From Escherichia phage vB_EcoP_SP7: a DNA stretch of 39,305 nucleotides. The stretch is from the sequence record MT682707.1, one strand, 5' to 3'. The translations under genes were made by a program, and so were the position numbers. How positions within the stretch are numbered: the stretch's first letter is position 1; each line of letters begins with the position of its first letter. Under the pieces are notes generated by a model. The model was not told the origin of the DNA. It saw only the letters and a list, made by a program, of their open reading frames with translations, and made no database searches. This document shows, piece by piece, positions 1 through 16,451 of this stretch.

Positions 1-155
1 TGGTAACTTATGGTCTCTGCCAGCATCACGTCACCAACGCCCGGCTTATGGTCAAGACAGGGCAGTTAAACCATGATGCGACTATGCGTCACCTGAAAGC
101 GGTCTATGAGGGGCGCAAGCGCATACACGACAGCTTACACTCTGAGGACAAGTAA
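1..155 (+). CDS. Early ORF in the gene 0.4 position, 5' end wraps around the window junction (ATG = base 39305 + bases 1-2); about 51 aa
   Basis: Frame is open from base 3 to TAA at 153-155; the start codon is reconstituted across the junction and overlaps the gene 0.3 stop (TAG TGA|TGG). Same length as T7 gp0.4 but no clear sequence similarity. Confidence 0.4.
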   Translation, partial: VTYGLCQHHVTNARLMVKTGQLNHDATMRHLKAVYEGRKRIHDSLHSEDK

Positions 156-157
156 AC

Positions 158-283
158 ATGTATCAGATAACTTATAGCAGCGAACAGGCGTTCTATGATG
201 GGTGCTACGAGATGATGAAACGCGGGGCTTGCTACGTAGCTGATCACCATAACCTGACTATAACGCTGAAAGGCGGTTACTAA
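158..283 (+). CDS. Small early ORF (41 aa), hypothetical
   Basis: ATG at 158 immediately after the previous stop; tightly packed early-gene arrangement. Below the ORF-track length cutoff; no recognisable motif. Confidence 0.3.
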   Translation: MYQITYSSEQAFYDGCYEMMKRGACYVADHHNLTITLKGGY

Positions 284-289
284 CTGCGA

Positions 290-646
290 GTGATAGACGA
301 GAGGTCATCGACCGATAGGTGGCCTCAAAGATTACCACTTACATTGATAGGAGTTAACTATGAACATAGGTTACTGGGTATGCTTATCTCCGGTCATCTT
401 TCTGATAGCTTGGGGCCTTCTGGACGCAATAAAGCGAGGGTCATTCTAATGAGCTGGATACTTCTGGTTATCTTCGGCTATGGACTTATCGCCTACGTGC
501 TGATGAGAGACATCAATAAAGCGCGCAAAGTCTATAAATTCAACTATGTAAGTCTGGGGCGCTGGACTGTACGCCAACCTAATGGACGATTCACGCGTAA
601 CTTAGCGAACGTCTGGGATATAGCAACACTTGGGAGCAAACTGTAA
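290..646 (+). CDS. Early hypothetical protein with a hydrophobic segment (start uncertain; internal ATG at 449 gives a 65-aa membrane peptide)
   Basis: Track ORF starting at a GTG; internal ATG at 449 is preceded by GAGGG and encodes a transmembrane-like stretch (SWILLVIFGYGLIAYVLM). A separate 29-aa hydrophobic ORF (360..449) lies upstream in another frame. Confidence 0.35.
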   Translation: MIDERSSTDRWPQRLPLTLIGVNYEHRLLGMLISGHLSDSLGPSGRNKARVILMSWILLVIFGYGLIAYVLMRDINKARKVYKFNYVSLGRWTVRQPNGRFTRNLANVWDIATLGSKL

Positions 647-1038
647 TGAATATGTCAAATCTGGTACACGCAATGGGCTCAATCATATCGCTTCGCACAT
701 TCACTGATAAGAACGGCGTAGAGTGGAAGTACGTTGGCACGGACTCTCGAGGTCGCAACTACTGGGAGAAGACAGGGAGCAAGACCGCTTATGTACATCG
801 CCACTCGTCACACACCGCACGTCAACAGCAGGAGCGGGACAGTGTACTACAGGCACGACTCCGGGCAGAGGGCCATAAGTCTGAGCTGATGTATCTAGCG
901 TATGGTGGACGGCCAATCACCGACGATGGTAAACTTCTGGTCTCAGGCTGGAAGGCGATAGACCAACGGTCAACCATCAAGCACACTACCCATGGTGACT
1001 TCAGCCATCTACACGCTAACCCTCTGATATGCAAGTAA
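646..1038 (+). CDS. Early hypothetical protein (130 aa)
   Basis: ATG overlaps the upstream stop (TAATGA); sits where T7 has gene 0.6/0.7 but has no kinase motifs. Confidence 0.5.
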   Translation: MNMSNLVHAMGSIISLRTFTDKNGVEWKYVGTDSRGRNYWEKTGSKTAYVHRHSSHTARQQQERDSVLQARLRAEGHKSELMYLAYGGRPITDDGKLLVSGWKAIDQRSTIKHTTHGDFSHLHANPLICK

Positions 1039-1043
1039 TTATG

Positions 1044-1066
1044 ACTTAACTATCACTATAGGACTC
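1044..1066 (+). promoter_or_regulatory. Phage-RNAP promoter immediately upstream of the RNAP gene
   Basis: ACTTAACTATCACTATAGGACTC matches the consensus of the other ten promoters; predicted +1 G at 1061. Confidence 0.7.
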
Positions 1067-1135
1067 AAGGTCTAAGACTACAAGTGAAATACCAAAGAGA
1101 CTTTAAGTGAAAGACTAATAACAAGGACTTTAAGT

Positions 1136-3817
1136 ATGAGCGTCATCTCTATTGACAAACACGACTTCTCTGATGTGTCGAACGCCATTGAGCCGTTTAA
1201 CCTGCTGGCTGACCATTACGGGCAAGACCTTGCAGTTAAACAGCTTCAGCTTGAGCATGAGGCATACACTGAAGGCGAGCGACGTTTCATCAAAAACCTT
1301 GAGCGCCAGACTGAGCGCGGGGAATTGGCAGACAATCAGGTAGCCAAGCCTCTCATGCAGACTCTGGTCCCTAAGATTGCGCAAGCCGTCAAGGAGTGGC
1401 ACGAAGGCGCGGACGGGAAGCTGTCAACTTCTCGCCCTAGCGTAGCGTTCACCATGTTGAGCACTGAAGAGAAGGCCGTCAAGGACCGCTCTCTACGCAT
1501 ATCCTGTGAGTCTGCTGCGGTTATCATACTGAAGGTCATCCTCTCCAAGCTGGTCAAGCCTGAAGGGATACCGATTACACCGATGGCCTCCGCGATAGGT
1601 CGCACACTTGAGGATGAAATCCGCTTCGGTCGCATCCGTGACAAGGAGCAGGAGCACTTCAAGAAGGCGATAGCTGAGAACCTGAACAAGCGCGCCGGGG
1701 CATCCTACAAAAAAGCCTACATGCAAGCGGTTGAGACATCCATGCTGGAGCAAGGACAGCTTGAAGATGCGTGGGGGACTTGGAGTCCGACCGAGGCGGT
1801 ACACGTTGGCATCAAGATGCTTGAGATTGTCATCCAGTCTACGCAACTGGTCGAGCTTAAGCGTTATGGTGCTGGCAATGCAGCGGCTGACGTTGAGATG
1901 GTCCACCTGTCAGACTTCTGGGTCAAGAAGATGGCACAACGTGGATTCAGCCTTGCGGGTATCGCACCAGTCTATCAGCCTTGCGTAGTTCCACCTAAGC
2001 CGTGGACGGGTGTCGTAGGCGGTGGTTACTGGGCTAAAGGTCGCAGACCGTTACCATTGATTCGCTTAGGGTCTAAGTCTGCGGTAGCACGTTACGAAGA
2101 CGTGTACATGCCTGAAGTCTATGACGCTGTGAACATCATCCAGAATACACCTTGGAAAGTTAACAAGAAGGTACTGGACGTGGTGAACATGGTCGAGAAG
2201 CTGAACAACACGCCTATTGATGACATCCCTCAGATGGAACCACTGAAGCCTGAGGACTACGCGGGTGAGACCGAAGAGGACCTCAAGGCATGGAAGAAGG
2301 CTGCTGCTGGTATCTACCGCCGAGAGAAGGCCCGGCAGTCACGCAGATTGTCACTGAGCTTTATCGTTAACCAAGCGAACAAGTTCTCTCAGTTCAAGGC
2401 CATCTGGTTCCCGTACAACATGGACTGGCGCGGTCGCGTCTACGCTGTGCCGATGTTCAACCCTCAGGGTAACGACATGCAGAAGGGTCTCCTGACTCTG
2501 GCAGTCGGCAAGCCCATTGGTGCTGATGGTTTCAAATGGCTGAAGGTCCACGGTGCAAACTGTGCTGGTGTCGATAAAGTCACCTTCGAGGAGCGCATCA
2601 AGTGGGTGGAAGACAACCACGACAACATCATGGCTGCTGCTAAGGCACCGATGGATAGCATTGAGTGGTGGGGCAAGTTAGACTCTCCGTTCTGCTTCCT
2701 TGCGTTCTGCTTCGAGTATGCTGGCGTAATGCACCACGGCCTGTCTTACTCCTGCTCTCTGCCCATAGCGTTCGATGGGTCCTGCTCCGGTATTCAGCAC
2801 TTTAGTGCTATGCTTCGTGACCACATCGGCGGACATGCAGTAAACCTGACGCCTTCCGGTAAGGTCCAAGACATCTACCGCATCGTGTCTGACCGCATTG
2901 AGGAGGAGCTTAAAGTCCTGCTGGTTAATGGCACGGACAACGAGGTGGTCACTCACGAGGACAAGAAAACTGGTGAGATTACCGAACGTCTCAAGCTGGG
3001 TACACGAGAGTTGGCCCGTCAGTGGCTGACTTACGGTATGTCACGCAAGGTCACTAAGCGTTCAGTCATGACTCTGGCCTATGGGTCGAAAGAGTACGGC
3101 TTCGCAGACCAAGTTTACGAGGACATCGTAATGCCTGCGATTGACTCAGGGTCTGGCGCTATGTTCACCGAACCAAGCCAAGCGTCCCGCTTCATGGCTA
3201 AGATGATTTGGGAAGCCGTGAGTGTGACCGTGGTTGCTGCTGTTGACGCGATGAAGTGGCTTCAAGGTGCTGCCAAGCTGCTGGCTGCTGAAGTGAAGGA
3301 CAAAAAGACTGGAGAAATCCTGAAGCCTTGCCTTCCGGTACACTGGGTCACACCTGATGGTTTCCCGGTCTGGCAGGAATACCGCAAGAAGGATACCACT
3401 CGTCTGAATCTGATGTTCTTAGGGTCATTCAACCTTCAGCCTACCGTCAACAAAGGCACGAAGAAGGAGTTGGATAAGCACAAGCAGGAGTCAGGTATTA
3501 GCCCGAACTTCGTCCACTCACAAGATGGTAGCCACCTACGCAAGACTGTAGTCCACACTCACCGCAAGTATGGCGTGATGTCATTCGCAGTGATTCACGA
3601 TAGCTTCGGGACCATCCCGGCTGACGCTGAGTATCTGTTCCGTGGTGTCCGTGAGACGATGGTCGAGACCTACCGAGACAACGATGTGCTGCTTGACTTC
3701 TACGAGCAGTTTGAATACCAACTTCATGAGAGCCAACGCGACAAGCTGCCTGAGCTTCCGAAGAAAGGTAAACTGAATATCGAAGACATCTTGTCTTCAG
3801 ACTTTGCATTCGCTTAA
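1136..3817 (+). CDS. DNA-directed RNA polymerase, single-subunit T7 type (gene 1), 893 aa
   Basis: Collinear with recalled T7 RNAP along its length (e.g. FNLLADHYG, CVVPPKPWTG, FPYNMDWRGRVYAV, HGANCAGVDK, SPFCFLAFCFEYAGV, LPIAFDGSCSGIQHFSAMLRD, SFAVIHDSFGT, C-terminal SDFAFA). Confidence 0.98.
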   Translation: MSVISIDKHDFSDVSNAIEPFNLLADHYGQDLAVKQLQLEHEAYTEGERRFIKNLERQTERGELADNQVAKPLMQTLVPKIAQAVKEWHEGADGKLSTSRPSVAFTMLSTEEKAVKDRSLRISCESAAVIILKVILSKLVKPEGIPITPMASAIGRTLEDEIRFGRIRDKEQEHFKKAIAENLNKRAGASYKKAYMQAVETSMLEQGQLEDAWGTWSPTEAVHVGIKMLEIVIQSTQLVELKRYGAGNAAADVEMVHLSDFWVKKMAQRGFSLAGIAPVYQPCVVPPKPWTGVVGGGYWAKGRRPLPLIRLGSKSAVARYEDVYMPEVYDAVNIIQNTPWKVNKKVLDVVNMVEKLNNTPIDDIPQMEPLKPEDYAGETEEDLKAWKKAAAGIYRREKARQSRRLSLSFIVNQANKFSQFKAIWFPYNMDWRGRVYAVPMFNPQGNDMQKGLLTLAVGKPIGADGFKWLKVHGANCAGVDKVTFEERIKWVEDNHDNIMAAAKAPMDSIEWWGKLDSPFCFLAFCFEYAGVMHHGLSYSCSLPIAFDGSCSGIQHFSAMLRDHIGGHAVNLTPSGKVQDIYRIVSDRIEEELKVLLVNGTDNEVVTHEDKKTGEITERLKLGTRELARQWLTYGMSRKVTKRSVMTLAYGSKEYGFADQVYEDIVMPAIDSGSGAMFTEPSQASRFMAKMIWEAVSVTVVAAVDAMKWLQGAAKLLAAEVKDKKTGEILKPCLPVHWVTPDGFPVWQEYRKKDTTRLNLMFLGSFNLQPTVNKGTKKELDKHKQESGISPNFVHSQDGSHLRKTVVHTHRKYGVMSFAVIHDSFGTIPADAEYLFRGVRETMVETYRDNDVLLDFYEQFEYQLHESQRDKLPELPKKGKLNIEDILSSDFAFA

Positions 3818-3829
3818 CAGGAGAGAGTT

Positions 3830-4045
3830 ATGAAATTCGCACACAAGCAGACTGGCGTTAAGGGTGGGACTCAAATCGTGACCGTAACAGAACACAACGG
3901 CAAGGGTCTGGTGAAGACCACTGTCATTCCAACTAAGATGTCCAAGCAGCTTAACATCCCGTTCAAGACCCTTGTATATCTGGTCGAGTCCAGCCATGAG
4001 AAGTACCTGAAGGACGCAGTGTCTAAACTGGAGCAGACCAAATGA
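3830..4045 (+). CDS. Hypothetical protein (71 aa), no T7 counterpart at this position
   Basis: ORF with RBS directly after gene 1; lies upstream of the promoter/RNase III pair that marks the gene 1.1 start in T7. Confidence 0.5.
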   Translation: MKFAHKQTGVKGGTQIVTVTEHNGKGLVKTTVIPTKMSKQLNIPFKTLVYLVESSHEKYLKDAVSKLEQTK

Positions 4046-4123
4046 CAGACCTACAGTTACTGGCCTTGTGGCTGGGAGCACTCGCAGTATTCACTTTAAT
4101 CCAACGCAGAAGAGGTTAACCCT

Positions 4124-4591
4124 ATGTTCGGTAAGTCAAAACTTAGAGCACAAATCAAAGAGTTGAGCATGAAGGTGGCATACTTGGAGCGAGCCGTAAT
4201 GGTCAGGGATAAAGACAACGAGAGACTGAAGGTTAAACTTGCTGAATCAGAGCGTAAGCGCCTAACGACACCAGCGGCTGTAACTGTCAAGCGTATGGTA
4301 GGCATCAAGTTCAAGGCACTTTTCAACGGTCTATACCAACCGACTGAGTTCAAGACCGGGCCGGGTAGCTGTGGGAAGAACGTTAAGCACTTCACCACAT
4401 CGAAGACTGAACGCACCATTACCATCCACCAACACCACGTAGACGGGTCTCAGAAAGACTTTGAGTACCGACTGAGCGACATAGACGGTCGCATCCAGTA
4501 TGACTACGAGCTGGTTCGGCTCTACGGCGAGGAGGAAGAGCAGGAACGTATAGTCCAAGCCTTCCGCAACATACCACGATTCATGCCCTAA
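4124..4591 (+). CDS. Hypothetical protein (155 aa) with predicted N-terminal coiled coil
   Basis: ORF with GAGG RBS; N-terminal heptad-like charged region (KELSMKVAYLERAVMVRDKDNERLKVKLAESERKRL). No recognised homolog. Confidence 0.55.
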   Translation: MFGKSKLRAQIKELSMKVAYLERAVMVRDKDNERLKVKLAESERKRLTTPAAVTVKRMVGIKFKALFNGLYQPTEFKTGPGSCGKNVKHFTTSKTERTITIHQHHVDGSQKDFEYRLSDIDGRIQYDYELVRLYGEEEEQERIVQAFRNIPRFMP

Positions 4592-4609
4592 ACTATCACT
4601 ATAGGATTA
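4587..4609 (+). promoter_or_regulatory. Phage-RNAP promoter (phi1.1 position)
   Basis: CTAAACTATCACTATAGGATTAG; +1 at 4604. Confidence 0.8.
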
Positions 4610-4650
4610 GACTCAAGGTCATGACTCAAAGTCGTGGCCTTCATGATTAA
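4609..4650 (+). promoter_or_regulatory. RNase III processing site (R1.1-like)
   Basis: AGACTCAAGGTCA...GTGGCCTTCATGATTAA; the same conserved element recurs at 11899 and 34856 and resembles the recalled T7 R0.5 site GACTCAAGGTCGC..GAGTGGCCTTTATGATT. Confidence 0.7.
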
Positions 4651-4679
4651 CCCTAACTCATTCAATCAGGAGCTACACC

Positions 4680-4859
4680 ATGTATCAGAACACTATCAAC
4701 TTCGAGCGCATCCGTGAACGTCAGCAGACTGAAGGTTACATTCCTAAGGGTCGCAAGCTGAACAAGACCAAACGTGGCGGTGGTGTCAAGGGTGCTTTCC
4801 GTAATGCTGAAGGTAAAGACTCTCTGGTTAACCAAGAGAAGTATTTCGTAGGAGCATAA
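4680..4859 (+). CDS. gp1.1-like small basic protein (59 aa)
   Basis: Contains KGRKLNKTKR, matching the recalled T7 gp1.1 motif; sits directly after promoter plus RNase III site as in T7. Confidence 0.6.
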   Translation: MYQNTINFERIRERQQTEGYIPKGRKLNKTKRGGGVKGAFRNAEGKDSLVNQEKYFVGA

Positions 4860-4863
4860 CCAA

Positions 4864-5127
4864 ATGGGCCGACTTTATAGTGGCAACCTCAACGCTTTCA
4901 AAGCAGCGTGTAACAGGCTCTATCAGTTAGACTTCGCTGTCATATCTCAAGAGTTTCAAGACCATGTGTCACGCCAAGAGTGCATGAAACTCAGGGTGGA
5001 GGACCGAGCTGGTAACATCTTCGCGCTTGAGACCTTCGCACACCACGATGAAGACGTACTGTACAACACTGCAACAGACTTCCTTAATGGTCTCGCTGAC
5101 CACCTCGACACATGGAGCAAATCATAA
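4864..5127 (+). CDS. gp1.2-like inhibitor of host dGTP triphosphohydrolase
   Basis: MGRLYSGNLNAFKAA..QLDFAVI..RVEDRAGN..HHDEDVLYN closely matches recalled T7 gp1.2. Confidence 0.85.
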   Translation: MGRLYSGNLNAFKAACNRLYQLDFAVISQEFQDHVSRQECMKLRVEDRAGNIFALETFAHHDEDVLYNTATDFLNGLADHLDTWSKS

Positions 5128-6233
5128 TGACTACGACTATTAAAACTAACCCGCACCGCGCTGTAGATTACTCTGAGTCCGGCGTTAAGAAAGCACTGGA
5201 AGCTGCCGGGTCACTGGAAGCTGAGGTGAAGTATGACGGTGTGCGCCTGAATCTCCCGGTCTTCCCGACAGGCGAGACCCAGTGGTTGAGCCGAGAGTCC
5301 AAGCCGCTTCCAGCCCTTGAATGGCTATCTGTCCTGACCAGCCTCGACAATATCGTGGAAGACCAGCAGCGCGCTAGCGACTGGCGGTGGTTCCTGAAGC
5401 AAGCTGGCTATGAGGGGACTGGCCTGATGGTTGATGGCGAGGTCATGGTGAAAGGGGTAGACTTCAACACATCCTCAGGTCTCATCCGAACGAAGTGGGT
5501 AAAGCAAAAGAACTTTGAGTTTTCAACTGGTGAGCACTGGGGTAAGAACTGGAAGAAAGAGAATCTACCGTTCTGTCTTGACAGGAAGCACATCAAGGTG
5601 GTCGTCTATGGTATCATCGACCTTAACGTCATCCTCGACCCGAAAGCCGAAGGTCCTATCCATAGCGTCACACGCCTGAAGGCCGAAGCTATCGTCCCTC
5701 TACTTCAGAAATACTTCCCGGAAATCGACTGGGTTCTGTCTGAGTCACACACGGTCTATGACCTTGAGTCGCTCAACTCCCTGTACGAAGAGAAGCGTCT
5801 GGAAGGACACGAGGGTCTGGTAGTCAAAGACCCACTTGGTAAATACAAGCGTGGTAAGAAGTCAGGCATGTGGAAAATGAAGCCTGAGGAGACAATTGAC
5901 GGGACCGTGTGTGGACTCGTGTGGGGGACTCAGGGTAAGGCCAACGAAGGCAAGGTCATTGGTTTTGAGGTTCTCTTGGAGGATGGCATGGTGGTTAACG
6001 CCTGTGGCCTGACTGAGGATCAGAAGGACGAGTTCACGGCAGAAGTATTTAACCGCAATGGGATTGACTCCCAGCGCGAGTACGAGGAATTGCTTTGTAT
6101 TGAGACTTTCAACCCTTACGGCGGGTGGCAGTGCGAGGTCCTCTTCATGGAGCGCTTCCCAGATGGTTCCTTACGTCACCCTAGCTTCAAGTGCTGGCGC
6201 GGGACGGAAGACAACCCTACCATTAAGAGCTAA
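5127..6233 (+). CDS. ATP-dependent DNA ligase (gene 1.3)
   Basis: IKTNP N-terminus, adenylation motif EVKYDGVR, and LMVDGEVMVKGVDFNTSSGLIRTKW match recalled T7 ligase. ATG at 5127 overlaps the gene 1.2 stop (track start 5112 is less likely). Confidence 0.95.
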   Translation: MTTTIKTNPHRAVDYSESGVKKALEAAGSLEAEVKYDGVRLNLPVFPTGETQWLSRESKPLPALEWLSVLTSLDNIVEDQQRASDWRWFLKQAGYEGTGLMVDGEVMVKGVDFNTSSGLIRTKWVKQKNFEFSTGEHWGKNWKKENLPFCLDRKHIKVVVYGIIDLNVILDPKAEGPIHSVTRLKAEAIVPLLQKYFPEIDWVLSESHTVYDLESLNSLYEEKRLEGHEGLVVKDPLGKYKRGKKSGMWKMKPEETIDGTVCGLVWGTQGKANEGKVIGFEVLLEDGMVVNACGLTEDQKDEFTAEVFNRNGIDSQREYEELLCIETFNPYGGWQCEVLFMERFPDGSLRHPSFKCWRGTEDNPTIKS

Positions 6234-6243
6234 CTAAATGTCA

Positions 6244-6276
6244 ACCCAGTGGTCTTAGGACTGCTGGGTCTTTTCA
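6244..6276 (+). terminator. Rho-independent terminator, probable early terminator TE
   Basis: CCCAGTGGTC-TTAG-GACTGCTGGG stem-loop (10 bp including G-U pairs) followed by TCTTTTC; same position after ligase as T7 TE. Confidence 0.6.
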
Positions 6277-6294
6277 CATCTGGAGGTTTACCAA

Positions 6295-6507
6295 ATGTCT
6301 AAGACCAAATTGTTTATCGGACAGTGGGACGTATGGGCGGTGACTGATGGCGTCGTTAGAGTCTGCCCTAAGTATCGCTTTATACTTGGCTACTATGAGT
6401 GGCGTGACGCCTACAGGACTGTATCGTCCCTTGAGGCAGACGAAGGGGTGAAGACCTTAGAGGTCAACAACTTCACTGAGAAGTCCGACCCTAAACTATC
6501 ACTGTAG
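6295..6507 (+). CDS. Hypothetical protein (70 aa), gene 1.4-1.6 region
   Basis: ORF with RBS (GGAGG) after the terminator. Confidence 0.5.
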   Translation: MSKTKLFIGQWDVWAVTDGVVRVCPKYRFILGYYEWRDAYRTVSSLEADEGVKTLEVNNFTEKSDPKLSL

Positions 6508-6512
6508 GACCA
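6490..6512 (+). promoter_or_regulatory. Phage-RNAP promoter, variant core CACTGTAGG
   Basis: CCTAAACTATCACTGTAGGACCA; A to G at -3 relative to consensus. Confidence 0.6.
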
Positions 6513-6546
6513 ACGTCGAGTTCATCAACTCAAAGGAGTAAACACT

Positions 6547-6807
6547 ATGTCTAAGAACTTAATGTTCAACCGTTATTCCAATACCTTCCACCTGTCCCAC
6601 AACCCGTTCGCTTGCATTAAGCGTAACGAGAAGCTGGGATACTTCGGGAAGGCCGTTAAGCTGTCACCTACAGTCTACGCGCTGATTACTCCGGGCAAAG
6701 CTGAAGAGGCTCGCCAGAAGCGTGAGACCAACGTACCTGTGGTCTACACTAAGTGGCCTCGCGTCCGTCTGTTCGTTGAGTTCGTGAAGGAGGTGGTAAA
6801 TGATTAA
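6547..6807 (+). CDS. Hypothetical protein (86 aa)
   Basis: ORF with AAAGGAG RBS. Confidence 0.5.
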   Translation: MSKNLMFNRYSNTFHLSHNPFACIKRNEKLGYFGKAVKLSPTVYALITPGKAEEARQKRETNVPVVYTKWPRVRLFVEFVKEVVND

Positions 6808-7249
6808 CCATAAACCAACTGCTGCCCAAGAACTTCTGGCACTTAACTTTAACGTAAGAGACGAAGCTAGCTGCGGTAAGGGGATAATCTGCAAGGGACT
6901 ATCATGTGATCGATGTCCAATGGTAGGTCAGTTGTCAGGTGATGGAGAGTACAAGACCCTTCGTGACTTACGGGCCTCTGTTGGAACAGTGGGAACGTGC
7001 AGCGAAGACGATGGTGTACGCAAGCCTCCCCACTATCAGGTCTTTGACGGTGTGGAATCCATTGAGGTTATCGCTAGGTCTATGACTGTCAGCGAGTTCC
7101 GTGGTTTCTGCATGGGTAACGTCCTGAAGTATCGACTACGAGCTGGTAAGAAGTCAGAGCTGGCGACTATGGAGAAGGACCTGAACAAAGCAGCCTTCTA
7201 TCAGGAGCTGTTCGACCTACATAAAGGTAAGTGCTATGCTGCCGAGTGA
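6800..7249 (+). CDS. Hypothetical Cys-rich protein (149 aa), possibly DUF3310-like C-terminus
   Basis: Cys cluster CGKGIICKGLSCDRCP; C-terminal GNVLKYRLRAGKK resembles the recalled DUF3310 signature (low certainty). Confidence 0.5.
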   Translation: MINHKPTAAQELLALNFNVRDEASCGKGIICKGLSCDRCPMVGQLSGDGEYKTLRDLRASVGTVGTCSEDDGVRKPPHYQVFDGVESIEVIARSMTVSEFRGFCMGNVLKYRLRAGKKSELATMEKDLNKAAFYQELFDLHKGKCYAAE

Positions 7250-7326
7250 GTGGTGCCGGGAGATGTACGAGAAGACTCTCAACCCGGACTACATTACGCT
7301 ATACAACCAATGGAAGGAGCGCGGTT

Positions 7327-7486
7327 TATGACTGAGGTTGAGAAGAAATACATCGTGGAGCTTGAGGGTCGCGTTCAGTCCTTCGAGGTTCCGGTGTACG
7401 CAAAGTCTCTTGAAGAGGCTACCATGAAGTCCCAAGAGTATGAGGACGCTGGGTTTGTGGTCGGACGGATTCGTCCTGAGACCTAA
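7327..7486 (+). CDS. gp2-like inhibitor of host RNA polymerase
   Basis: [14 protein letters not shown]...[10 protein letters not shown] matches recalled T7 gp2 (SFEVPIYAETLDEA...AGFEVTRVRP). AAGGAG sits 8 nt upstream of ATG 7327; the track's 7250 start is a GTG with no RBS. Confidence 0.75.
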
Positions 7487-7504
7487 ACTATCACTGTAGG
7501 ACAG
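7482..7504 (+). promoter_or_regulatory. Phage-RNAP promoter (phi2.5 position), variant core CACTGTAGG
   Basis: CCTAAACTATCACTGTAGGACAG. Confidence 0.6.
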
Positions 7505-7543
7505 ACGTCCAGTTCGTAACTTTAAAATAGGAGATTTACACCA

Positions 7544-8242
7544 ATGGCTAAAGAGCAACTGAAGACTTTCACCACTCCGGTAGCTGGTATCGTTGAGCCT
7601 TACGCATGGCTAAACAAAGCAGACACCAAGTTCAACGAGCGTGGTGAACACAAAGTCAACCTGACATTCGACCTGAACAACACGAAGGTCCGTAAGATGA
7701 TTGATGTCTTACAGAAGATTCATGACGATGCCTATGCGAAAGCACTCGCAGACCACGAGAAGAACCCACCTCAGGTTCAGCGTGGTAAGAAGCCTATTGA
7801 ACCACGAGAAGGCGACATGCCGTGGATTGAGAATGGTGACGGTACTGTTACCCTGAAGTTTAAGTGCTTCGCGTCTTACCTGAAGGATGGTAAGTCAGAG
7901 CCTATCGTATTACGGTTCTACGACACCGATGCTAAACTCATCCGTGACGTCCCGAATATTGGCGCTGGGTCTAAGCTGAAGGTCAAGTTCAAAGTCCTGC
8001 CGTTCAAGTGGAACGCTGCGACTGGTGCAAGCGTTAAGCTCCAGCTTGAGTCCTGCCTTCTGGTAGAACTGAAGGAGTGGAAAGGTGATGGTGCTGGTGG
8101 TGATGGTGGCTGGGGTGATGATGAAGACCTTGGTACTGGCTACAAAGCGTCAACAGATGGTGACTTCGGGTCTGATGACTTCGGTGATGATGGCTCCGAA
8201 GGTGGTGATGACTCCAGCTCTGGTGGCGATTACGACTTCTAA
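7544..8242 (+). CDS. Single-stranded DNA-binding protein (gene 2.5), 232 aa
   Basis: Same length as T7 gp2.5; conserved NPP..RGKKP, GDMP, ENGDGT, KLKVKFKV..KWNAATGASVKLQLES and the acidic C-terminal tail ending in F. Confidence 0.95.
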   Translation: MAKEQLKTFTTPVAGIVEPYAWLNKADTKFNERGEHKVNLTFDLNNTKVRKMIDVLQKIHDDAYAKALADHEKNPPQVQRGKKPIEPREGDMPWIENGDGTVTLKFKCFASYLKDGKSEPIVLRFYDTDAKLIRDVPNIGAGSKLKVKFKVLPFKWNAATGASVKLQLESCLLVELKEWKGDGAGGDGGWGDDEDLGTGYKASTDGDFGSDDFGDDGSEGGDDSSSGGDYDF

Positions 8243-8694
8243 TGGCCCAATGGTCTGCAAAACGGGGGCACTCTGTGGGTGCCTACCGCTCTGGACTTGA
8301 AGCCAAGAACCAGCAGTGGCTGGAACAGAACGGCGTCAAAGCGGAGTACGAAAGCCATTATATCAACTATGTGATTCCGGCTTCCGACCACAAGTACACA
8401 CCAGACTTTATCCTTCCAAACGGGATCATCGTGGAGACCAAAGGTATCTTCGATAGTGATGACCGTAAGAAGCACCTTCTGGTACGAGAACAGCACCCAG
8501 AGTTAGACATCCGGTTCGTGTTCTCAAGTTCCCGCTCCAAGCTATACAAAGGGTCTCCGACCACGTATGGCGCATGGTGCGAAAAGAACGGCTATAAGTA
8601 TGCCGATAAATTCATCCCGGTTGAGTGGCTTCGAGAGGCGACTGTACGTCTGCCTTCAGGTATACTCATCCCTAAGAAGAAAGGAGTTAAGTGA
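8242..8694 (+). CDS. Endonuclease I, Holliday-junction resolvase (gene 3)
   Basis: YRSGLE, YTPDFILPNGIIVETKG, DDRKKHLLVREQHPELDIRFVFSSSRSKLYKGSPTTYG match recalled T7 endonuclease I. Confidence 0.95.
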   Translation: MAQWSAKRGHSVGAYRSGLEAKNQQWLEQNGVKAEYESHYINYVIPASDHKYTPDFILPNGIIVETKGIFDSDDRKKHLLVREQHPELDIRFVFSSSRSKLYKGSPTTYGAWCEKNGYKYADKFIPVEWLREATVRLPSGILIPKKKGVK

Positions 8695-9185
8695 TGGGCA
8701 AGAAGTTTAAACTGTTAGAAGATAAGTGTGGCTGGTCTCGTGGGACTATCGTTACCAAGTGTGAGAATGATCCCGAACCCGATTCAGGAATGACCCTAGT
8801 TGAGTGCCAGACTCCAGGAGCATACAAACATGGGTCTAACGGCCGCAATACTCAGCCTGAGGGTATGTGGGGAGCATGGGTCCCTAATTACGAACTTGAG
8901 GAAATCAAACCAGAAGGGGAACTCACTGGAGTGCAGACCACTCAAGTCCTGCCAGCTTCTAGCGTACCACCTTTGACTGTGAAGCGTGAAGTCCTGACCA
9001 TCGACAAGATTGGTGTAGGCCAGACGTTCATCGTCCACGGCAAGCCTGACGAAGTTTACGTGAAGATTAGCAACTCACACGTCTTCAACCATAAGCGTCT
9101 CCAGATGCACACCACGGACGCACAACGCTTCACCCAGCACCTGAATCTAGTGGTCGTAGAATTGGTGGTGTACAATGGTAAGTAA
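8694..9185 (+). CDS. Hypothetical protein (163 aa) inserted between endonuclease I and lysozyme
   Basis: ATG overlaps the gene 3 stop, with AAGGAG RBS; no T7 counterpart (genes 3 and 3.5 are adjacent in T7). Confidence 0.55.
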   Translation: MGKKFKLLEDKCGWSRGTIVTKCENDPEPDSGMTLVECQTPGAYKHGSNGRNTQPEGMWGAWVPNYELEEIKPEGELTGVQTTQVLPASSVPPLTVKREVLTIDKIGVGQTFIVHGKPDEVYVKISNSHVFNHKRLQMHTTDAQRFTQHLNLVVVELVVYNGK

Positions 9186-9633
9186 GGTGCAATTCAACCA
9201 ACGGTCCCGGACTGACGCTATCTTCGTTCACTGTTCGGCTACCAAGCCAGAGATGGACATCGGGGTAGAGACCATCCGTATGTGGCACAAGCAGCAAGGC
9301 TGGCTGGACGTAGGCTACCACTTTATCATCAAGCGAGACGGTACTGTGGAAGAGGGTCGACCGGTCAATGTCGTAGGGTCACATGTTAAGGACTGGAACT
9401 CACGGTCTGTAGGCGTCTGCCTTGTAGGTGGAATCAACGCTAAGGGTCAGTTTGAAGCTAACTTCACTCCAGCCCAGATGAACTCCCTGCGCAACAAGCT
9501 GGCTGACCTGAAGTCCATGTATCCTCAGGCAGAAATCAAAGCACACCATGACGTAGCACCTAAGGCGTGTCCAAGTTTCGACTTGCAACGCTGGCTGTCT
9601 ACCAATGAACTGGTCACTTCCGACCGTGGATAA
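9175..9633 (+). CDS. Lysozyme, N-acetylmuramoyl-L-alanine amidase and RNAP inhibitor (gene 3.5)
   Basis: VQFNQRSRTDAIFVHCSATKP...WLDVGYHFIIKRDGTVEEGR...APKACPSFDL...NELVTSDRG is nearly collinear with recalled T7 lysozyme. Confidence 0.95.
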   Translation: MVSKVQFNQRSRTDAIFVHCSATKPEMDIGVETIRMWHKQQGWLDVGYHFIIKRDGTVEEGRPVNVVGSHVKDWNSRSVGVCLVGGINAKGQFEANFTPAQMNSLRNKLADLKSMYPQAEIKAHHDVAPKACPSFDLQRWLSTNELVTSDRG

Positions 9634-9733
9634 GATAGACTTTCTGCTTATCCTTCTGTTATCAGGAGCAATCACCTTCGTAGGATGGTGGTTCTTCCCT
9701 GAACACTTTGAACTCTAAAGGAGAACAACCCCA

Positions 9734-9949
9734 ATGATTAAACTTATTGAATTTCTTGGTCGTCTGGTGGTGCGTGGCTATCGTCGTGCTGCGGTTATGG
9801 AACGAAAGGTAGCAGAGAAGACCGCTGACGGTGCGGCTGATGCTGCTGCTCTAGCTGACAAGCTGACAATCCAGTCACTGGAAGCTGGCATGAAGGCTCG
9901 TCAGGCTGATACCAAAGCTGACCAGTTGGCGCATTTCTTCAAAGCCTAA
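9734..9949 (+). CDS. Hypothetical protein (71 aa), Ala-rich
   Basis: ORF with AAAGGAG RBS between lysozyme and the gene 4 promoter. Confidence 0.45.
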   Translation: MIKLIEFLGRLVVRGYRRAAVMERKVAEKTADGAADAAALADKLTIQSLEAGMKARQADTKADQLAHFFKA

Positions 9950-9967
9950 ACTATCACCTTAGGGATG
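9945..9967 (+). promoter_or_regulatory. Divergent phage-RNAP promoter-like site upstream of gene 4
   Basis: CCTAAACTATCACCTTAGGGATG; the upstream specificity region is intact, with two substitutions at -4 and -3. Confidence 0.45.
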
Positions 9968-10014
9968 GGACCGTGAGTCCTGTCCCTTTGTCCGCGTTTG
10001 TGATTAAGGAGTGA

Positions 10015-11894
<1,880 letters not shown>

Positions 11895-11898
11895 GTCT

Positions 11899-11940
11899 AG
11901 ACTCAAGGTCATTCACAGCGAGTGGCCTTTATGATTAGAC
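11899..11940 (+). promoter_or_regulatory. RNase III processing site upstream of the DNA polymerase gene
   Basis: AGACTCAAGGTCATTCACAGCGAGTGGCCTTTATGATTAGAC; same conserved element as at 4609 and 34856. Confidence 0.7.
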
Positions 11941-11957
11941 TAAACGGAGGATTAACC

Positions 11958-14129
11958 ATGTTTGACCTTAAGAGTATCTGGGGTTCTGACATCGAGACAA
12001 ACGGTCTCCTTGATACAGTCTCCCAGTTTCACTGTGGGGTACTGATTAACGCCGAGTCGAATGAGACCCTTAAGTATGGGGTAGCTCCGATGGTCGGTAT
12101 CATCGGTGGCTTCAAAGAGTATGTTCATAAAGTGGAAGAGATTGCCGCATCACCTGATGGTATGCTGGTATTCCACAACGGTATCAACTATGACGTCCCT
12201 GCTATTGACAAGCTGAAACGTCTGTACCTTGGGAAACGCTTTAACTTCCCGAAACACAAGATGATTGATACATTGGTGTTGGGACGCTTGATGTATCCCA
12301 ACATTAAGTTCTCAGACATGGGCGCGGTGAAAGCGGGTCGTCTACCACCTAAGATGATGGGACGTCAGTCTCTTGAGGCTTGGGGCTATCGTCTTGGTGA
12401 GATGAAAGGTGAGTACAAACACGATTACGTTGCCAAGTGCAAGGCTGAAGGTATCGAATATAAGGCTGGGGACGAATGGTTGTTCCCATCTCAGGAGATG
12501 CTGGACTATAACGTTCAAGACGTTGTGGTCACACTGGAGTTGTTCAAGAAGTTCCTGACTGACAAGTATTACTTCCAGTCTGAACAGTTCGCTTTCGACC
12601 AGATTTATGCGTTGCGTCTGGAACATGATGCTGCGTGGACCTGTGCGAAGATGGAACGTAATGGCTATCCAATGAACACCGAGATGGTCGAAGGCTTATA
12701 TCGTGAACTCACCGTCAAACGTGCAGAGCTGCTGGACAAGCTGCGCTCGACTTTCGGTAGCTGGTACGCACCAAAGGGAGGCAAAGAGTTCTTCAAGCAC
12801 CCCAGGACAGGCAAGGACCTTCCGAAGTATCCGCGAGTCGTGTATCCTAAAATAGGTGGCATCTTTAAGAAGCCGAAGAACAAAGCTCAACGCTTAGGTC
12901 TTGAACCTTGTGAGCGCGATACGCGAGACACGATGGAGGGAGCACCGTTCACGCCTATAACTTACGTTGAGTTTAATCCGGGAAGCGGAGACCACTTAGC
13001 GAAAGTCCTGATGGAGCGTGGATGGGAGCCTGTAGACTTCACTGACACCGGGAAACCTGTAGTCGATGACGAGACGTTAGAACACGTTAAGTTACAAGAT
13101 GAAGAGGCTCAGGCTTGCGTAGAGCTGGTCCGCGAGTATCTGGTAGTCCAGAAGCGCATCGGTCAGGCGGCTGAAGGTAAGAACGCATGGTTGAAACTTG
13201 TAGGTCCAGACGGACGTATGCACGGTTCAATCAACCCATGTGGTGCAGTAACCGGACGTGCGACCCATAGTACACCAAATATGGCTCAGGTCCCGGCTAA
13301 CGGTGCCCCATACGGTGAGACTTGCCGTGGTGCTTTCGGTGCAGCGTGGAACAAGACTAACGGTGAGCCAGACCCTTGGCTTCAGGTTGGTGTGGATGCT
13401 TCAGGTCTTGAGCTTCGCTGTCTGGGGAACAGAGCGGCTCCGTTTGACGGTGGTGAATACGCCAAGACTGTGGTCGAAGGTGACATCCACTGGGCCAACG
13501 CAGTAAACGCTGGGTTAGCACCTAACGTCCAACGCGATAAGTCTAACCACGACCATGATGCTTTCCGTAATAACGCTAAGACGTTCATCTATGCGTTCCT
13601 GTATGGTGCCGGGGCCGCGAAGATTGGACTGATAGTTGGAGGTGGTAAGAAGGAAGGTTCAGCTCTCATGAAGAAATTCATTGAGGGTACACCAGCCATA
13701 AAGGACCTCAGGGAAGCTGTGCAGAACACGCTCATCTCAGAGTCGAAGTGGGTAGATGGTGAGAACATCGTGAAGTGGAAACGTCGCTGGCTGAAAGGTC
13801 TGGATGGTCGCCGCATTCACATCCGGTCGCCACACTCAGCACTTAACGCATTACTTCAGGGCGATGGTGCGGTAGTCTGCAAGCACTGGATGGTACTTAC
13901 TGAGAAGAAACTTGAAGAGGCTGGTTACGGTAACGGATGGGACGGTGATTTTGCGCTAATGGCTTGGATTCACGATGAATTGCAGATAGCGTGTCGTACT
14001 CAGGAGATAGCAGAAGATGTCGTCCGTATTGCTCAAGAGGCGATGCGTGAGGTCGGACGCTTCTATAACTTCAAGTGTGAACTTGATACGGAGGGTAAGA
14101 TTGGACCAACGTGGAAAGAGTGTCATTGA
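11958..14129 (+). CDS. DNA polymerase (gene 5), family A
   Basis: 3'-5' exonuclease motif DIETNGL and polymerase motifs (VTGRATHS, RDKSNHDHDAFRNNAKTFIYAFLYGAG, WIHDELQ) match recalled T7 DNAP. ATG 11958 has a GGAGG RBS; the track's 11922 start overlaps the RNase III site. Confidence 0.97.
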   Translation: MFDLKSIWGSDIETNGLLDTVSQFHCGVLINAESNETLKYGVAPMVGIIGGFKEYVHKVEEIAASPDGMLVFHNGINYDVPAIDKLKRLYLGKRFNFPKHKMIDTLVLGRLMYPNIKFSDMGAVKAGRLPPKMMGRQSLEAWGYRLGEMKGEYKHDYVAKCKAEGIEYKAGDEWLFPSQEMLDYNVQDVVVTLELFKKFLTDKYYFQSEQFAFDQIYALRLEHDAAWTCAKMERNGYPMNTEMVEGLYRELTVKRAELLDKLRSTFGSWYAPKGGKEFFKHPRTGKDLPKYPRVVYPKIGGIFKKPKNKAQRLGLEPCERDTRDTMEGAPFTPITYVEFNPGSGDHLAKVLMERGWEPVDFTDTGKPVVDDETLEHVKLQDEEAQACVELVREYLVVQKRIGQAAEGKNAWLKLVGPDGRMHGSINPCGAVTGRATHSTPNMAQVPANGAPYGETCRGAFGAAWNKTNGEPDPWLQVGVDASGLELRCLGNRAAPFDGGEYAKTVVEGDIHWANAVNAGLAPNVQRDKSNHDHDAFRNNAKTFIYAFLYGAGAAKIGLIVGGGKKEGSALMKKFIEGTPAIKDLREAVQNTLISESKWVDGENIVKWKRRWLKGLDGRRIHIRSPHSALNALLQGDGAVVCKHWMVLTEKKLEEAGYGNGWDGDFALMAWIHDELQIACRTQEIAEDVVRIAQEAMREVGRFYNFKCELDTEGKIGPTWKECH

Positions 14130-14171
14130 CCCTCGAACCCAGACCCTACGCTTCCACACCATGCCTACCGG

Positions 14172-14441
14172 ATGTATCGTCTGCGTGTCCACAAGAGGAA
14201 CCAAGATGGGTACTTCCGGTACTCCATGGGAAGCTACAGGAAGGGTAACAAGTTCGCCTTCATGTTCCACCGATGGGTGTGGGAGCAGAAGCGTGGACCT
14301 ATACCAGATGGCTATGAGATAGACCATTTGTGCTTGAACCGTGGGTGCTGCAACATAGAGCACCTACAGTGTATTCCAAAGCGCGAACACGTCATTAAGA
14401 CGAACCGCGAGCGCAAACTTGTTAAGAAGGAGTGTCACTAA
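14172..14441 (+). CDS. HNH homing endonuclease
   Basis: HNH motif region GYEIDHLCLNRGCCNIEHLQCIPKREH; located immediately after gene 5, where T7 has no such gene. Confidence 0.8.
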   Translation: MYRLRVHKRNQDGYFRYSMGSYRKGNKFAFMFHRWVWEQKRGPIPDGYEIDHLCLNRGCCNIEHLQCIPKREHVIKTNRERKLVKKECH

Positions 14442-14629
14442 TGGGTCATTATGACAGCGCATACGAAGAGTTAGCTGAAGAAACACGCAGGCGTGAAGAG
14501 CTACGTCAGTCGCGGTGCGAACATCCAGATTGGGTACTTGTCTACTGCACGCAGGATGGCAAGCCCAAAGTAACTCAGTGCAGACTGTGTGGAAAGACCA
14601 ATCACATTGAATCCCAAGGAGAAATCTAA
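14441..14629 (+). CDS. Hypothetical small Cys-containing protein (62 aa), possible zinc ribbon
   Basis: AAGGAG RBS then ATG 14441; cysteines CEH...YC...CRLCGK. Confidence 0.45.
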   Translation: MGHYDSAYEELAEETRRREELRQSRCEHPDWVLVYCTQDGKPKVTQCRLCGKTNHIESQGEI

Positions 14630-14901
14630 TGGCTATTACTAAACGCCTTACCTGTAAGTTTGACATGAAGATTATCTTTACGTCTGAGGACGTGGAGTCA
14701 TACGCTCTTAATATGGTGGAGCTTACCAAGGGTTATGTCTCCGGTGAGAAACAGGATGGCATGACACGGAAGCTGGTAGAGACTGCTATAGAGCATGGGG
14801 TCGAAGCTGCCATTGAGCTGCACCTGAAGTCTATTCTGTCGTCCAATCTGAAAGACGCGCTGCAAGAGGTCTACAACATCAGCACGAGGTTCAAGCAATG
14901 A
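14629..14901 (+). CDS. gp5.5-like protein (candidate H-NS-binding host takeover factor)
   Basis: N-terminus MAITKR... and position resemble recalled T7 gp5.5; similarity is weak. Confidence 0.45.
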   Translation: MAITKRLTCKFDMKIIFTSEDVESYALNMVELTKGYVSGEKQDGMTRKLVETAIEHGVEAAIELHLKSILSSNLKDALQEVYNISTRFKQ

Positions 14902-15107
14902 GTGAATACTTACGGGTCCTTGCGGCCCTTAAGTCCTGCCCGAAGACCTTCCAGTCCAACTATGTGCGCAACAACGCTGCACTTGTGGCTGAGGCTGCGA
15001 GTCGTGGACATCTAAGCTGCCTGTCTATGGATGGGCGTAACAACGGTGCGTGGGAAATTACTGCTGCTGGCACCAAGTTCCTAAATCAACATGGAGGCTG
15101 TCTATGA
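14898..15107 (+). CDS. gp5.7-like protein (candidate host sigma-S/RNAP inhibitor)
   Basis: MSEYLRVLAALKSCPKTFQSNYVRNNAALVAEAASRGH...GAWEITAAGTKFL strongly resembles my recollection of T7 gp5.7. Confidence 0.6.
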   Translation: MSEYLRVLAALKSCPKTFQSNYVRNNAALVAEAASRGHLSCLSMDGRNNGAWEITAAGTKFLNQHGGCL

Positions 15108-15382
15108 ATCAAGACGTATCAGGACGCGAACTTAAGGTAGGACAGAAGGTTGCTTTCTGTCTGGCTGGAAAATCCTACGCAATGCGTATAGGCGAAGTCG
15201 TCCGGGTAATGCCTAAGACGGTAGCCATCAAGCATAAGACATATATTCGCTGGAAAGGAGCTGCCGAGGAAGTCGAGACGGTACGTGCATTCTCTTCAGT
15301 GTGTATCGTTGAGGAACCGAAAGCTTCATTGATGCCAGCTACGGTCGCTATGGCTACGGGAGGTCTGGACGATGGGTTCTGA
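15104..15382 (+). CDS. Hypothetical protein (92 aa), gene 5.9 position but not gp5.9-like
   Basis: GGAGG RBS then ATG 15104; no similarity to recalled T7 gp5.9. Confidence 0.45.
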   Translation: MNQDVSGRELKVGQKVAFCLAGKSYAMRIGEVVRVMPKTVAIKHKTYIRWKGAAEEVETVRAFSSVCIVEEPKASLMPATVAMATGGLDDGF

Positions 15383-16241: not shown

Positions 16242-16367
16242 TTTACTGGGCCGGACTTCTGGCCATTTACTGCATGTACAAGTGGTTTGGGTCAAACAAC
16301 CGTCCTAAACACTGAGTCTAACCGATAGTCATATCCTATCAATCCAACAGTCATCCATAGGTGAAAC

Positions 16368-16390
16368 ACTAAACTATCACTATAGGGACT
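16368..16390 (+). promoter_or_regulatory. Phage-RNAP promoter (phi6.5 position)
   Basis: CACTAAACTATCACTATAGGGACT; +1 at 16385. Confidence 0.85.
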
Positions 16391-16451
16391 TTAGGACCTA
16401 AGATATGACTATAAGATAGACTTTAGTCTTAACTTAAAGAGGAGATTCAAG

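What the first reader, a model, noticed from the sequence alone, without database searches (positions are those of the whole stretch)
1..155. An ORF spans the window junction, supporting circular permutation
The last base of the window (A at 39305) plus the first two (TG) form an ATG that overlaps the ocr stop and opens a 51-codon frame ending at 155. This indicates the window ends were joined in the source molecule or assembly.
Basis: seen in the sequence. Interest (0 to 1): 0.35.

Follow-up and report, generated by a model that had tools for sequence, protein, structure and literature searches.

The report
Phage gene split by record ends
The window is the deposited genome of the T7-like coliphage vB_EcoP_SP7, opened at an arbitrary point that cuts the start codon of a small conserved early gene (a T7 gp0.4 / FtsZ-inhibitor homologue); this is an ordinary assembly and record artefact, not new biology.

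Summary
A(39305)+TG(1-2) opens a 51-aa ORF ending at 155. One correction: ocr stops at TAG 39300-39302, and the ATG overlaps the next in-frame TGA, which is the ocr stop in relatives.

- The window is Escherichia phage vB_EcoP_SP7 (MT682707; 39,305 bp; Kayfunavirus). [quoted passage not shown]
- An independent Logan contig from the phage's own SRA run (SRR12228467) equals window 38330..39305 followed by 1..169, with 0 mismatches.
- 180 phage records carry the same gene uninterrupted; in every relative whose annotation was inspected it starts at the last base of the ocr stop.
- The window is collinear end to end with EcoDS1 when rotated to 38020, where many finished relatives begin and which starts TCTCACAGT as T7 does.
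- Only one copy of the 178-bp terminal repeat (38020-38197) is present. The virion DNA is therefore probably a linear, non-permuted molecule of about 39,483 bp. The "circularity" belongs to the assembly.

The split gene is in Pfam PF26807 (Phage_T7_GP04). It is under purifying selection, is predicted as a two-helix hairpin, and keeps 5 of 6 validated FtsZ-contact residues of T7 Gp0.4. It is missing from the deposited annotation.

Low interest; already known in kind.

The parts
39305..39305 (+). First base (A) of the ATG of the split gene. It is also the last base of the TGA at 39303-39305, which is the ocr stop codon in relatives.
1..155 (+). Rest of the split gene: TG of the ATG, 50 codons, and TAA at 153-155. 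It encodes a 51-aa protein of Pfam PF26807 (Phage_T7_GP04), equivalent to gene 0.35 of EcoDS1/K1F and homologous to T7 gene 0.4. It is not annotated in the deposited record.
39291..39295 (+). GAGGA Shine-Dalgarno for the split gene, 9 nt upstream of the ATG and inside the acidic C-terminal codons of ocr. Relatives and T7 conserve it as GAGGAGGA.
   Evidence: Peacock annotates an RBS at the equivalent place.
38961..39302 (+). ocr (gene 0.3), a DNA-mimic anti-restriction protein of 113 aa. It is identical to QLF80639.1 of vB_EcoP_SP7. It ends at TAG, one codon earlier than in relatives.
   Evidence: Pfam PF08684 E 1.3e-30; phrog_2568; exact look-up.
38020..38197 (+). Single, collapsed copy of the 178-bp direct terminal repeat. 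38020 is the predicted physical left end and 38197 the predicted physical right end of the virion DNA.
   Evidence: Aligns to both annotated terminal repeats of EcoDS1 and to Peacock's PhageTerm-predicted repeat. There is no second copy in the window. Starts TCTCACAGT and is followed by ATCTGT, as in T7.
37781..38019 (+). Unique right-arm sequence between gene 19.5 and the terminal repeat. Homologous to EcoDS1 38861-39074.
38198..38960 (+). Left-arm non-coding early control region. It holds a 15-bp x 3.9 tandem repeat (38220-38277) and three host-RNAP promoters whose -35 hexamers start at about 38437, 38578 and 38732. These transcribe rightward through ocr and across the window end.
   Evidence: Homology to EcoDS1's annotated promoters; consensus scan hit at 38578-38606; tandem repeat.
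158..283 (+). First gene annotated in the deposited record (SP7_0001, 41 aa). This shows that window coordinates are the record's own coordinates and that nothing is annotated at 1-155.
   Evidence: Exact look-up: QLF80663.1 'hypothetical protein SP7_0001'.
1136..3817 (+). Gene 1, T7-type single-subunit RNA polymerase (893 aa). It is a downstream member of the same early transcription unit.
   Evidence: ORF list; collinear with EcoDS1 gene 1.

Best explanation
The window is the GenBank record of Escherichia phage vB_EcoP_SP7 (MT682707), a T7-like Kayfunavirus. Short-read assembly collapsed the two copies of its roughly 178-bp direct terminal repeat into one, giving an apparently circular 39,305-bp contig. 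The authors could not determine the termini, and the contig was opened at an arbitrary point. That point lies one base into the start codon of the small gene directly after ocr. The two window ends are therefore ordinary neighbouring bases about 1.29 kb from the true left end. The junction ORF is a real early gene, transcribed from the host-RNAP promoters at about 38437-38740 and translated from an SD inside the end of ocr. Its start overlaps the TGA that is the ocr stop in relatives, a layout compatible with translational coupling. It belongs to the T7 gp0.4 family. Its most likely function (inferred, not shown) is to bind FtsZ as a two-helix hairpin and block host cell division. The virion DNA most likely runs 38020 -> 39305 -> 1 -> 38197, about 39,483 bp, linear and not permuted.
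For: Identity of the window: the exact ocr protein is QLF80639.1 [vB_EcoP_SP7] on a 39,305-bp contig. SP7_0001, SP7_0002 and SP7_0003 are the first ORFs of the window. Length 39,305 bp and GC 50.07% match Table 1 of PMC7471389, which also says the genome ends could not be determined with PhageTerm. Continuity: a Logan contig from the same run, SRR12228467, crosses the join with 0 mismatches over 1,145 bp. Homology: 92-94% aa identity to genes that are continuous in EcoDS1, Peacock and SEA1f; 180 phage records hold the gene full-length; the stop/start/SD context is conserved. Rotation: blastn against EcoDS1 gives window 38020-39284 = EcoDS1 1-1313, window 1-147 = 1323-1469, and so on to window 34328-38197 = 35414-39252. 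Terminal repeat: the alignment runs right arm, then repeat, then left arm, and there is one copy only. Real gene: dN/dS of 0.04-0.31 against the window. Family: PF26807:Phage_T7_GP04 is recorded for the exact protein, for all 91 of its homologues and for all 43 T7 gp0.4 homologues. hhalign gives E 1.8e-5 over 40 columns and BLASTP to T7 gp0.4 gives 39% over 41 aa. The AF2 model has two helices and pLDDT 91.7. Five of six mutationally validated FtsZ-interface residues of T7 Gp0.4 are identical (PMC13423816, alignment).
Against: The terminal-repeat boundaries and the linear, non-permuted state of SP7 virion DNA rest on homology to relatives with defined ends, not on SP7 read starts or physical mapping. 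W28 of T7 Gp0.4, which is essential for FtsZ binding, is His in this protein. The hhalign probability is only 78%. K1F's copy has no BLASTP-detectable match to T7 gp0.4. No experiment links any Kayfunavirus copy to FtsZ. Why the record was opened at exactly this base is unknown.
Confidence: 0.95

Rival explanations
1. The virion DNA itself is circularly permuted and terminally redundant (headful packaging), so no fixed ends exist and any opening point is equally valid.
For: The authors' PhageTerm run could not determine the ends. The assembly behaves as a circle.
Against: The window contains a homologue (38020-38197) of the fixed terminal repeat annotated in EcoDS1 and predicted by PhageTerm in Peacock. 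It has the T7-type TCTCACAGT left end and the ATCTGT sequence after the repeat. At least eight finished relatives begin exactly at the equivalent base. The library was Nextera XT; from my own knowledge, transposase libraries are poorly suited to calling termini, which would explain the failed determination.
Confidence: 0.03
2. The window ends are true molecule ends, or a mis-join, and the junction ORF is a chance reading frame.
For: ORFs across arbitrary joins are very common (90% of simulated joins). A second, non-conserved ORF also crosses this join.
Against: A read-level contig crosses the join exactly. The ORF has full-length homologues in 180 phages. It shows purifying selection, has a curated Pfam family and gives a confident fold. 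Collinearity with EcoDS1 continues seamlessly across the join.
Confidence: 0.01
3. The ends are joined, but the 51-aa gene is not an FtsZ inhibitor. It shares ancestry with T7 gp0.4 and has diverged to another host target or another role.
For: Only about 39% identity to T7 gp0.4. The essential W28 is replaced by His. The residues of T7 Gp0.4 that contact CapRel (A12, T14, L16, S19, R23) are all different. No direct data exist for any Kayfunavirus copy.
Against: V15, V22, M32, L35 and Y39 of the validated FtsZ interface are identical. The two-helix fold, length, genomic position and early expression context are the same. K1F, which carries a 78%-identical copy, mislocalises FtsZ and filaments its host (PMC9372555).
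Confidence: 0.3

Closest known systems
Arbitrarily opened, repeat-collapsed assemblies of T7-like phages with short direct terminal repeats (for example EcoDS1 and Peacock as correctly oriented references)
   Same: Gene order, the terminal-repeat sequence, the TCTCACAGT left end and the promoter layout are shared. Many other deposited Kayfunavirus records are also permuted: the terminase, terminal-repeat and ocr region lies internally in ST31, P762, CY1, vB_EcoP-U8 and others.
   Different: In SP7 the cut falls inside a gene's start codon, so that gene is lost from the annotation. None of the 180 phage records in the collection that hold the gene splits it.
T7 gene 0.4 (Gp0.4), the FtsZ inhibitor (Kiro et al. 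2013, PNAS, PMC3845191, as cited in PMC9372555 and PMC13423816)
   Same: Both are 51 aa. Both lie directly after ocr with a one-base overlap between the start codon and a stop codon in the ocr frame, and with an SD inside the end of ocr. Both are early genes, in the same Pfam family (PF26807), with a predicted two-helix hairpin. Five of six validated FtsZ-interface residues are identical.
   Different: Only about 39% identity. W28 is replaced by His. The CapRel-contact residues are not conserved. FtsZ binding has not been tested for this subfamily.
Gene 0.35 of EcoDS1 and CLB_P1, and the unnamed ORF after gene 0.3 of K1F (AAZ72965.1)
   Same: These are orthologues with 78-94% aa identity, the same position and the same context.
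   Different: In those records the gene is annotated and intact. Here it straddles the ends of the record.

Membership tests
T7-like (Studiervirinae, Kayfunavirus) linear genome with short direct terminal repeats | Genome-wide collinearity and nucleotide similarity with members of the genus | tested here: met
   95.4% identity to Klebsiella phage SEA1f over 25 kb and about 93% to EcoDS1 and others. Fully collinear with EcoDS1 after rotation.
T7-like (Studiervirinae, Kayfunavirus) linear genome with short direct terminal repeats | A homologue of the terminal repeat with the conserved end sequence | tested here: met
   Window 38020-38197 aligns to both EcoDS1 terminal repeats and to Peacock's. 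It starts TCTCACAGT and is followed by ATCTGT, as in T7.
T7-like (Studiervirinae, Kayfunavirus) linear genome with short direct terminal repeats | The repeat is physically present at both ends of virion DNA, at fixed positions | not testable with these tools
   This needs read-start or coverage analysis, or physical mapping. The window holds one copy, and the authors' PhageTerm run was inconclusive.
Pfam PF26807 (Phage_T7_GP04) | Match to the family model | tested here: met
   A precomputed hit is recorded for the exact 51-aa protein on L014 and for all 91 homologues. The model is absent from the local Pfam copy, so I could not recompute it. Independent support comes from hhalign E 1.8e-5 and reciprocal PHROG cross-hits between phrog_5058 and phrog_7202.
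Pfam PF26807 (Phage_T7_GP04) | About 50 aa forming two antiparallel helices | tested here: met
   AF2 gives helices at 7-19 and 24-47 with mean pLDDT 91.7. T7 Gp0.4 is described as two antiparallel alpha-helices (PMC13423816).
Pfam PF26807 (Phage_T7_GP04) | Residues of the FtsZ interface (V15, V22, W28, M32, L35, Y39 of T7 Gp0.4) | tested here: inconclusive
   Five of six are identical (V11, V18, M29, L32, Y36). W28 corresponds to H25.
Pfam PF26807 (Phage_T7_GP04) | Binds FtsZ and blocks cell division | not testable with these tools
   This requires expression and binding experiments.
Headful-packaged, circularly permuted phage genomes | No fixed ends; terminal redundancy of variable sequence | tested here: not met
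   A homologue of a fixed-position terminal repeat is present, and relatives with determined ends start at the equivalent of 38020. This evidence is indirect for SP7 itself.
ocr (Pfam PF08684), the upstream neighbour | Match to the family model above the gathering score | tested here: met
   106.3 bits against a cut-off of 25, E 1.3e-30.

The most novel reading that the evidence does not exclude
The split gene and its Kayfunavirus orthologues (gene 0.35 of EcoDS1; AAZ72965.1 of K1F) may be the 'currently unknown' FtsZ-inhibiting peptide of K1F-type phages. Dhanoa et al. 2022 (PMC9372555) reported that peptide as absent because BLAST found no gp0.4 homologue. The subfamily keeps the FtsZ-contact face of T7 Gp0.4, while every residue that T7 Gp0.4 uses to contact the CapRel(Ebc) immune sensor has changed. 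It might therefore inhibit division without triggering that defence.
Probability: 0.4. Interest if true: 0.35.

Novelty: already known. Interest (0 to 1): 0.1.

Why it matters
The value is mainly in curation. MT682707 lacks one conserved early gene because the record boundary cuts its start codon. Its termini, reported as undetermined, can be predicted at 38020 and 38197, giving a virion length of about 39,483 bp. Re-orienting the record would restore the gene and make it comparable with reference Kayfunavirus genomes. It also illustrates a general point: an ORF across a window join is very weak evidence on its own (90% of artificial joins produce one), whereas homology and read-level continuity are decisive. 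There is one modest biological side-benefit. The K1F group does encode a gp0.4-family protein, contrary to a published statement, which gives a concrete candidate for the FtsZ inhibition seen with K1F.

Tried and rejected
- An exact 39-nt junction pattern found 0 matches in IMG/VR viral contigs.
- The local Pfam scan gave nothing for the junction protein. T7 gp0.4 itself also gave nothing, so PF26807 is simply absent from that copy and the negative result is uninformative.
- A PDB sequence search found no solved relative.
It worked through ocr and through the cluster-member id.
- MT682707 is not in the annotated collections. I inferred the record's annotation from exact protein look-ups instead.
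- The terminal-repeat annotation of Providencia phage EPr2 is internally duplicated and messy, so I did not use it as an end reference.
- The dN/dS value for Cronobacter phage CtuP_B1 (1.04) is invalid, because a 2-codon deletion breaks the ungapped comparison. The pooled pN/pS of 0.52 includes it and should be ignored.
- I rejected the second junction-spanning ORF (39220..76, 53 aa) as a gene. It overlaps ocr out of frame and has in-frame stops in K1F, SH3 and ASO2B.
- Direct BLASTP of K1F's copy against T7 gp0.4 gives nothing. The family link rests on the window's copy, on profiles and on Pfam.
- I did not run a fold search, because a 50-residue helical hairpin would give uninformative matches.

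Full report
**1. The observation**

The window ends ...GACTGCTAGTGA and begins TGGTAACTTATGG. The last base plus the first two make an ATG. Fifty further sense codons follow, then TAA at 153-155. The product is a 51-aa protein, MVTYGLCQHHVTNARLMVKTGQLNHDATMRHLKAVYEGRKRIHDSLHSEDK.

One detail needs correcting. The ocr ORF (38961-39302; Pfam ocr, E 1.3e-30) stops at TAG 39300-39302. The ATG overlaps the next in-frame codon, TGA 39303-39305. In relatives the sequence is GAC TGC GAG TGATG, so that TGA is the ocr stop and the overlap is the T7-type one-base stop/start overlap. This phage has a GAG->TAG change one codon earlier. A GAGGA Shine-Dalgarno sits at 39291-39295. The ribosome-binding site is therefore at one end of the window and the ORF body at the other.

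**2. Is it more than chance?**

The ORF alone is not.
- 90% of 5,000 artificial joins of random window positions gave some ORF of at least 51 aa across the join.
- 59% of shuffled ends did the same.
- A start codon straddling the join followed by at least 50 sense codons occurred in 3.1% of joins, or 0.9% for ATG only.
- A second 53-aa ORF also crosses the real join. It is interrupted by stops in K1F, SH3 and ASO2B, so it is spurious.

The case has to rest on other evidence.

**3. What the window is**

megablast places the window in Kayfunavirus, the K1F/EcoDS1 group of T7-like phages. The closest record in the collection is Klebsiella phage SEA1f, at 95.4% over 25 kb.

Exact-sequence look-ups identify the source.
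- The window's 113-aa ocr is QLF80639.1 of Escherichia phage vB_EcoP_SP7, on a 39,305-bp contig.
- The first three ORFs of the window are SP7_0001 (158-283), SP7_0002 (449-646) and SP7_0003 (646-1038).
- The genome announcement (PMC7471389) lists SP7 as MT682707, 39,305 bp, 53 CDS, GC 50.1%, Nextera XT library, SRA SRR12228467. The window's GC is 50.07%.

Window coordinates are therefore the record's own coordinates. The record was opened without knowledge of the ends.

**4. The window ends are adjacent in the real DNA**

- **Read-level evidence.** Logan contig SRR12228467_2202 (1,145 bp) was assembled independently from the phage's own run. It equals window 38330..39305 followed by 1..169 with zero mismatches. 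Gene calling on it gives ocr followed, after two intervening bases, by the 51-aa gene.
- **Homology.** EcoDS1 gene 0.35, Peacock_006 and SEA1f_orf003 are 92-94% identical to the junction protein. In all three, the start overlaps the last base of the ocr stop, on uninterrupted DNA. tblastn finds a full-length copy in 180 phage records, none of them split.
- **Collinearity.** blastn against the whole EcoDS1 genome gives window 38020-39284 = EcoDS1 1-1313 and window 1-147 = 1323-1469. The match continues in order to window 34328-38197 = EcoDS1 35414-39252, the right terminus.

**5. Where the true ends are**

Eight finished relatives have record position 1 aligned to window 38020: EcoDS1, Peacock, LS2, LS3, ECG4, SH3, Vec13 and MopsHU1.
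- Window 37781-38019 aligns to EcoDS1's unique right arm.
- Window 38020-38197 aligns to both copies of EcoDS1's annotated 178-bp terminal repeat and to Peacock's PhageTerm-predicted repeat.
- Window 38198 onward aligns to the unique left arm.
- The repeat begins TCTCACAGT and is followed by ATCTGT, as in T7 itself.
- The window has no second copy.

The assembly therefore collapsed the two repeat copies. By homology, the virion DNA is linear, 38020 -> 39305 -> 1 -> 38197, about 39,483 bp. The "circular permutation" is a property of the record, not of the phage. SP7's own ends were not measured here.

**6. The split gene**

- It is under purifying selection, with dN/dS of 0.04-0.31 against the window for the ungapped relatives and differences concentrated at third codon positions in the closest relatives.
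- It hits phrog_5058 (E 1.9e-28), with a cross-hit to phrog_7202, which is T7 gp0.4's family. T7 gp0.4 cross-hits phrog_5058 in return.
- BLASTP to T7 gp0.4, whose sequence I verified from NC_001604, gives 39% identity over 41 aa.
- hhalign of the two families gives E 1.8e-5 over 40 columns, probability 78%.
- The precomputed Pfam family PF26807 (Phage_T7_GP04) is assigned to the exact protein, to all 91 of its homologues and to all 43 T7 gp0.4 homologues.
- AlphaFold2 predicts two helices with pLDDT 91.7. This matches the two antiparallel helices described for T7 Gp0.4 (PMC13423816).
- T7 Gp0.4 binds FtsZ and blocks division (Kiro et al. 2013, as cited in PMC9372555 and PMC13423816).
- Substitutions V15A, V22A, W28A, M32A, L35A and Y39A abolish T7 Gp0.4 toxicity. 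In the alignment these positions correspond to V11, V18, H25, M29, L32 and Y36. Five of six are identical.

Three host-RNAP promoters, mapped from EcoDS1's annotation, have -35 hexamers starting at about 38437, 38578 and 38732. They point through ocr and across the window end.

Which steps are shown and which are inferred:
- Shown: gene identity, family membership, expression context and predicted fold.
- Inferred: FtsZ binding and inhibition of cell division.

**7. Consequence for the record**

The exact 51-aa sequence is in the protein collection only from Logan, not from NCBI, although other SP7 proteins are there from NCBI. SP7_0001 starts at 158. The deposited annotation therefore lacks this gene because of the opening point.

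**8. Side observation**

Dhanoa et al. [quoted passage not shown] K1F's ORF after gene 0.3 (AAZ72965.1) is 78% identical to the junction protein and keeps the same five interface residues. Its direct BLASTP against T7 gp0.4 finds nothing, which explains the published statement. It is a concrete candidate for the unknown inhibitor. Pfam already groups the two families, so the homology itself is not new.

**9. Verdict**

The feature is an ordinary artefact of how a T7-like genome with collapsed terminal repeats was linearised. The affected gene belongs to a known family. Interest is low and the value is mainly for curation.

Noticed in passing
window 39300-39305: ocr ends with tandem stops, TAG TGA. 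Relatives have GAG TGA, so SP7's ocr is one residue (a terminal Glu) shorter: 113 aa against 114 aa in its cluster. The TAG is also present in the independent Logan contig, so it is not an error of the deposited assembly.
   Followed up: partly
L009:501-650 (K1F DQ111067 1623-1772), and window 39305+1..155: A published paper (PMC9372555) says K1F lacks gene 0.4 and that its FtsZ-inhibiting peptide is unknown. The K1F ORF after ocr is a PF26807 (Phage_T7_GP04) family member that keeps 5 of 6 validated FtsZ-contact residues. Plain BLASTP against T7 gp0.4 misses it.
   Followed up: partly
window 38220-38277 and 37940-38005: A perfect 15-bp tandem repeat (ACTACCTACAGTCTA, 3.9 copies) lies just right of the terminal repeat. 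Further scattered ACCTACAGT motifs lie on both sides of it. From my own knowledge this resembles the short-repeat arrays that flank the T7 terminal repeat. The copy number differs from EcoDS1 and Peacock.
   Followed up: no
window 32720-34328: The C-terminal two-thirds of the tail-fibre gene 17 (ORF 32083-34269) has no blastn match to EcoDS1, although the rest of the genome is about 93% identical. This looks like a swapped host-range module.
   Followed up: no
window 25240-25246 versus EcoDS1 25871-26271: EcoDS1's gene 13.5 (annotated endonuclease VII, about 400 bp) has no counterpart in the window. This is probably the presence or absence of a mobile homing-type endonuclease between genes 13 and 14. 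Other breaks in collinearity lie at window 4854-5124, 6795-7010 and 14125-14886.
   Followed up: no
window 1016-1062, 4581-4631, 6490-6534, 7482-7526, 9939-9970, 16340-16393, 19186-19236, 20185-20216, 24711-24757, 32009-32040, 37392-37438: A family of phage-RNAP promoter-like repeats with core TAAACTATCACTATAGG (or TTAACTATCACTATAGG). The copy at about 37392-37438 corresponds in position to EcoDS1's phiOR.
   Followed up: no
window 290-646: The mechanical 118-aa GTG ORF is really two genes. Residues 1-41 hit phrog_36394 and residues 52-117 hit phrog_2385. The record annotates only 449-646 (SP7_0002). The exact product of the small upstream ORF (359-451, 30 aa) is not in the protein collection.
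   Followed up: partly
window 4595-4658 and 34843-34906: A 64-nt direct repeat (80% identity) follows a promoter-like element at two distant sites, after gene 1.05/1.1 and after gene 18. It may be a shared RNA-processing or regulatory element.
   Followed up: no
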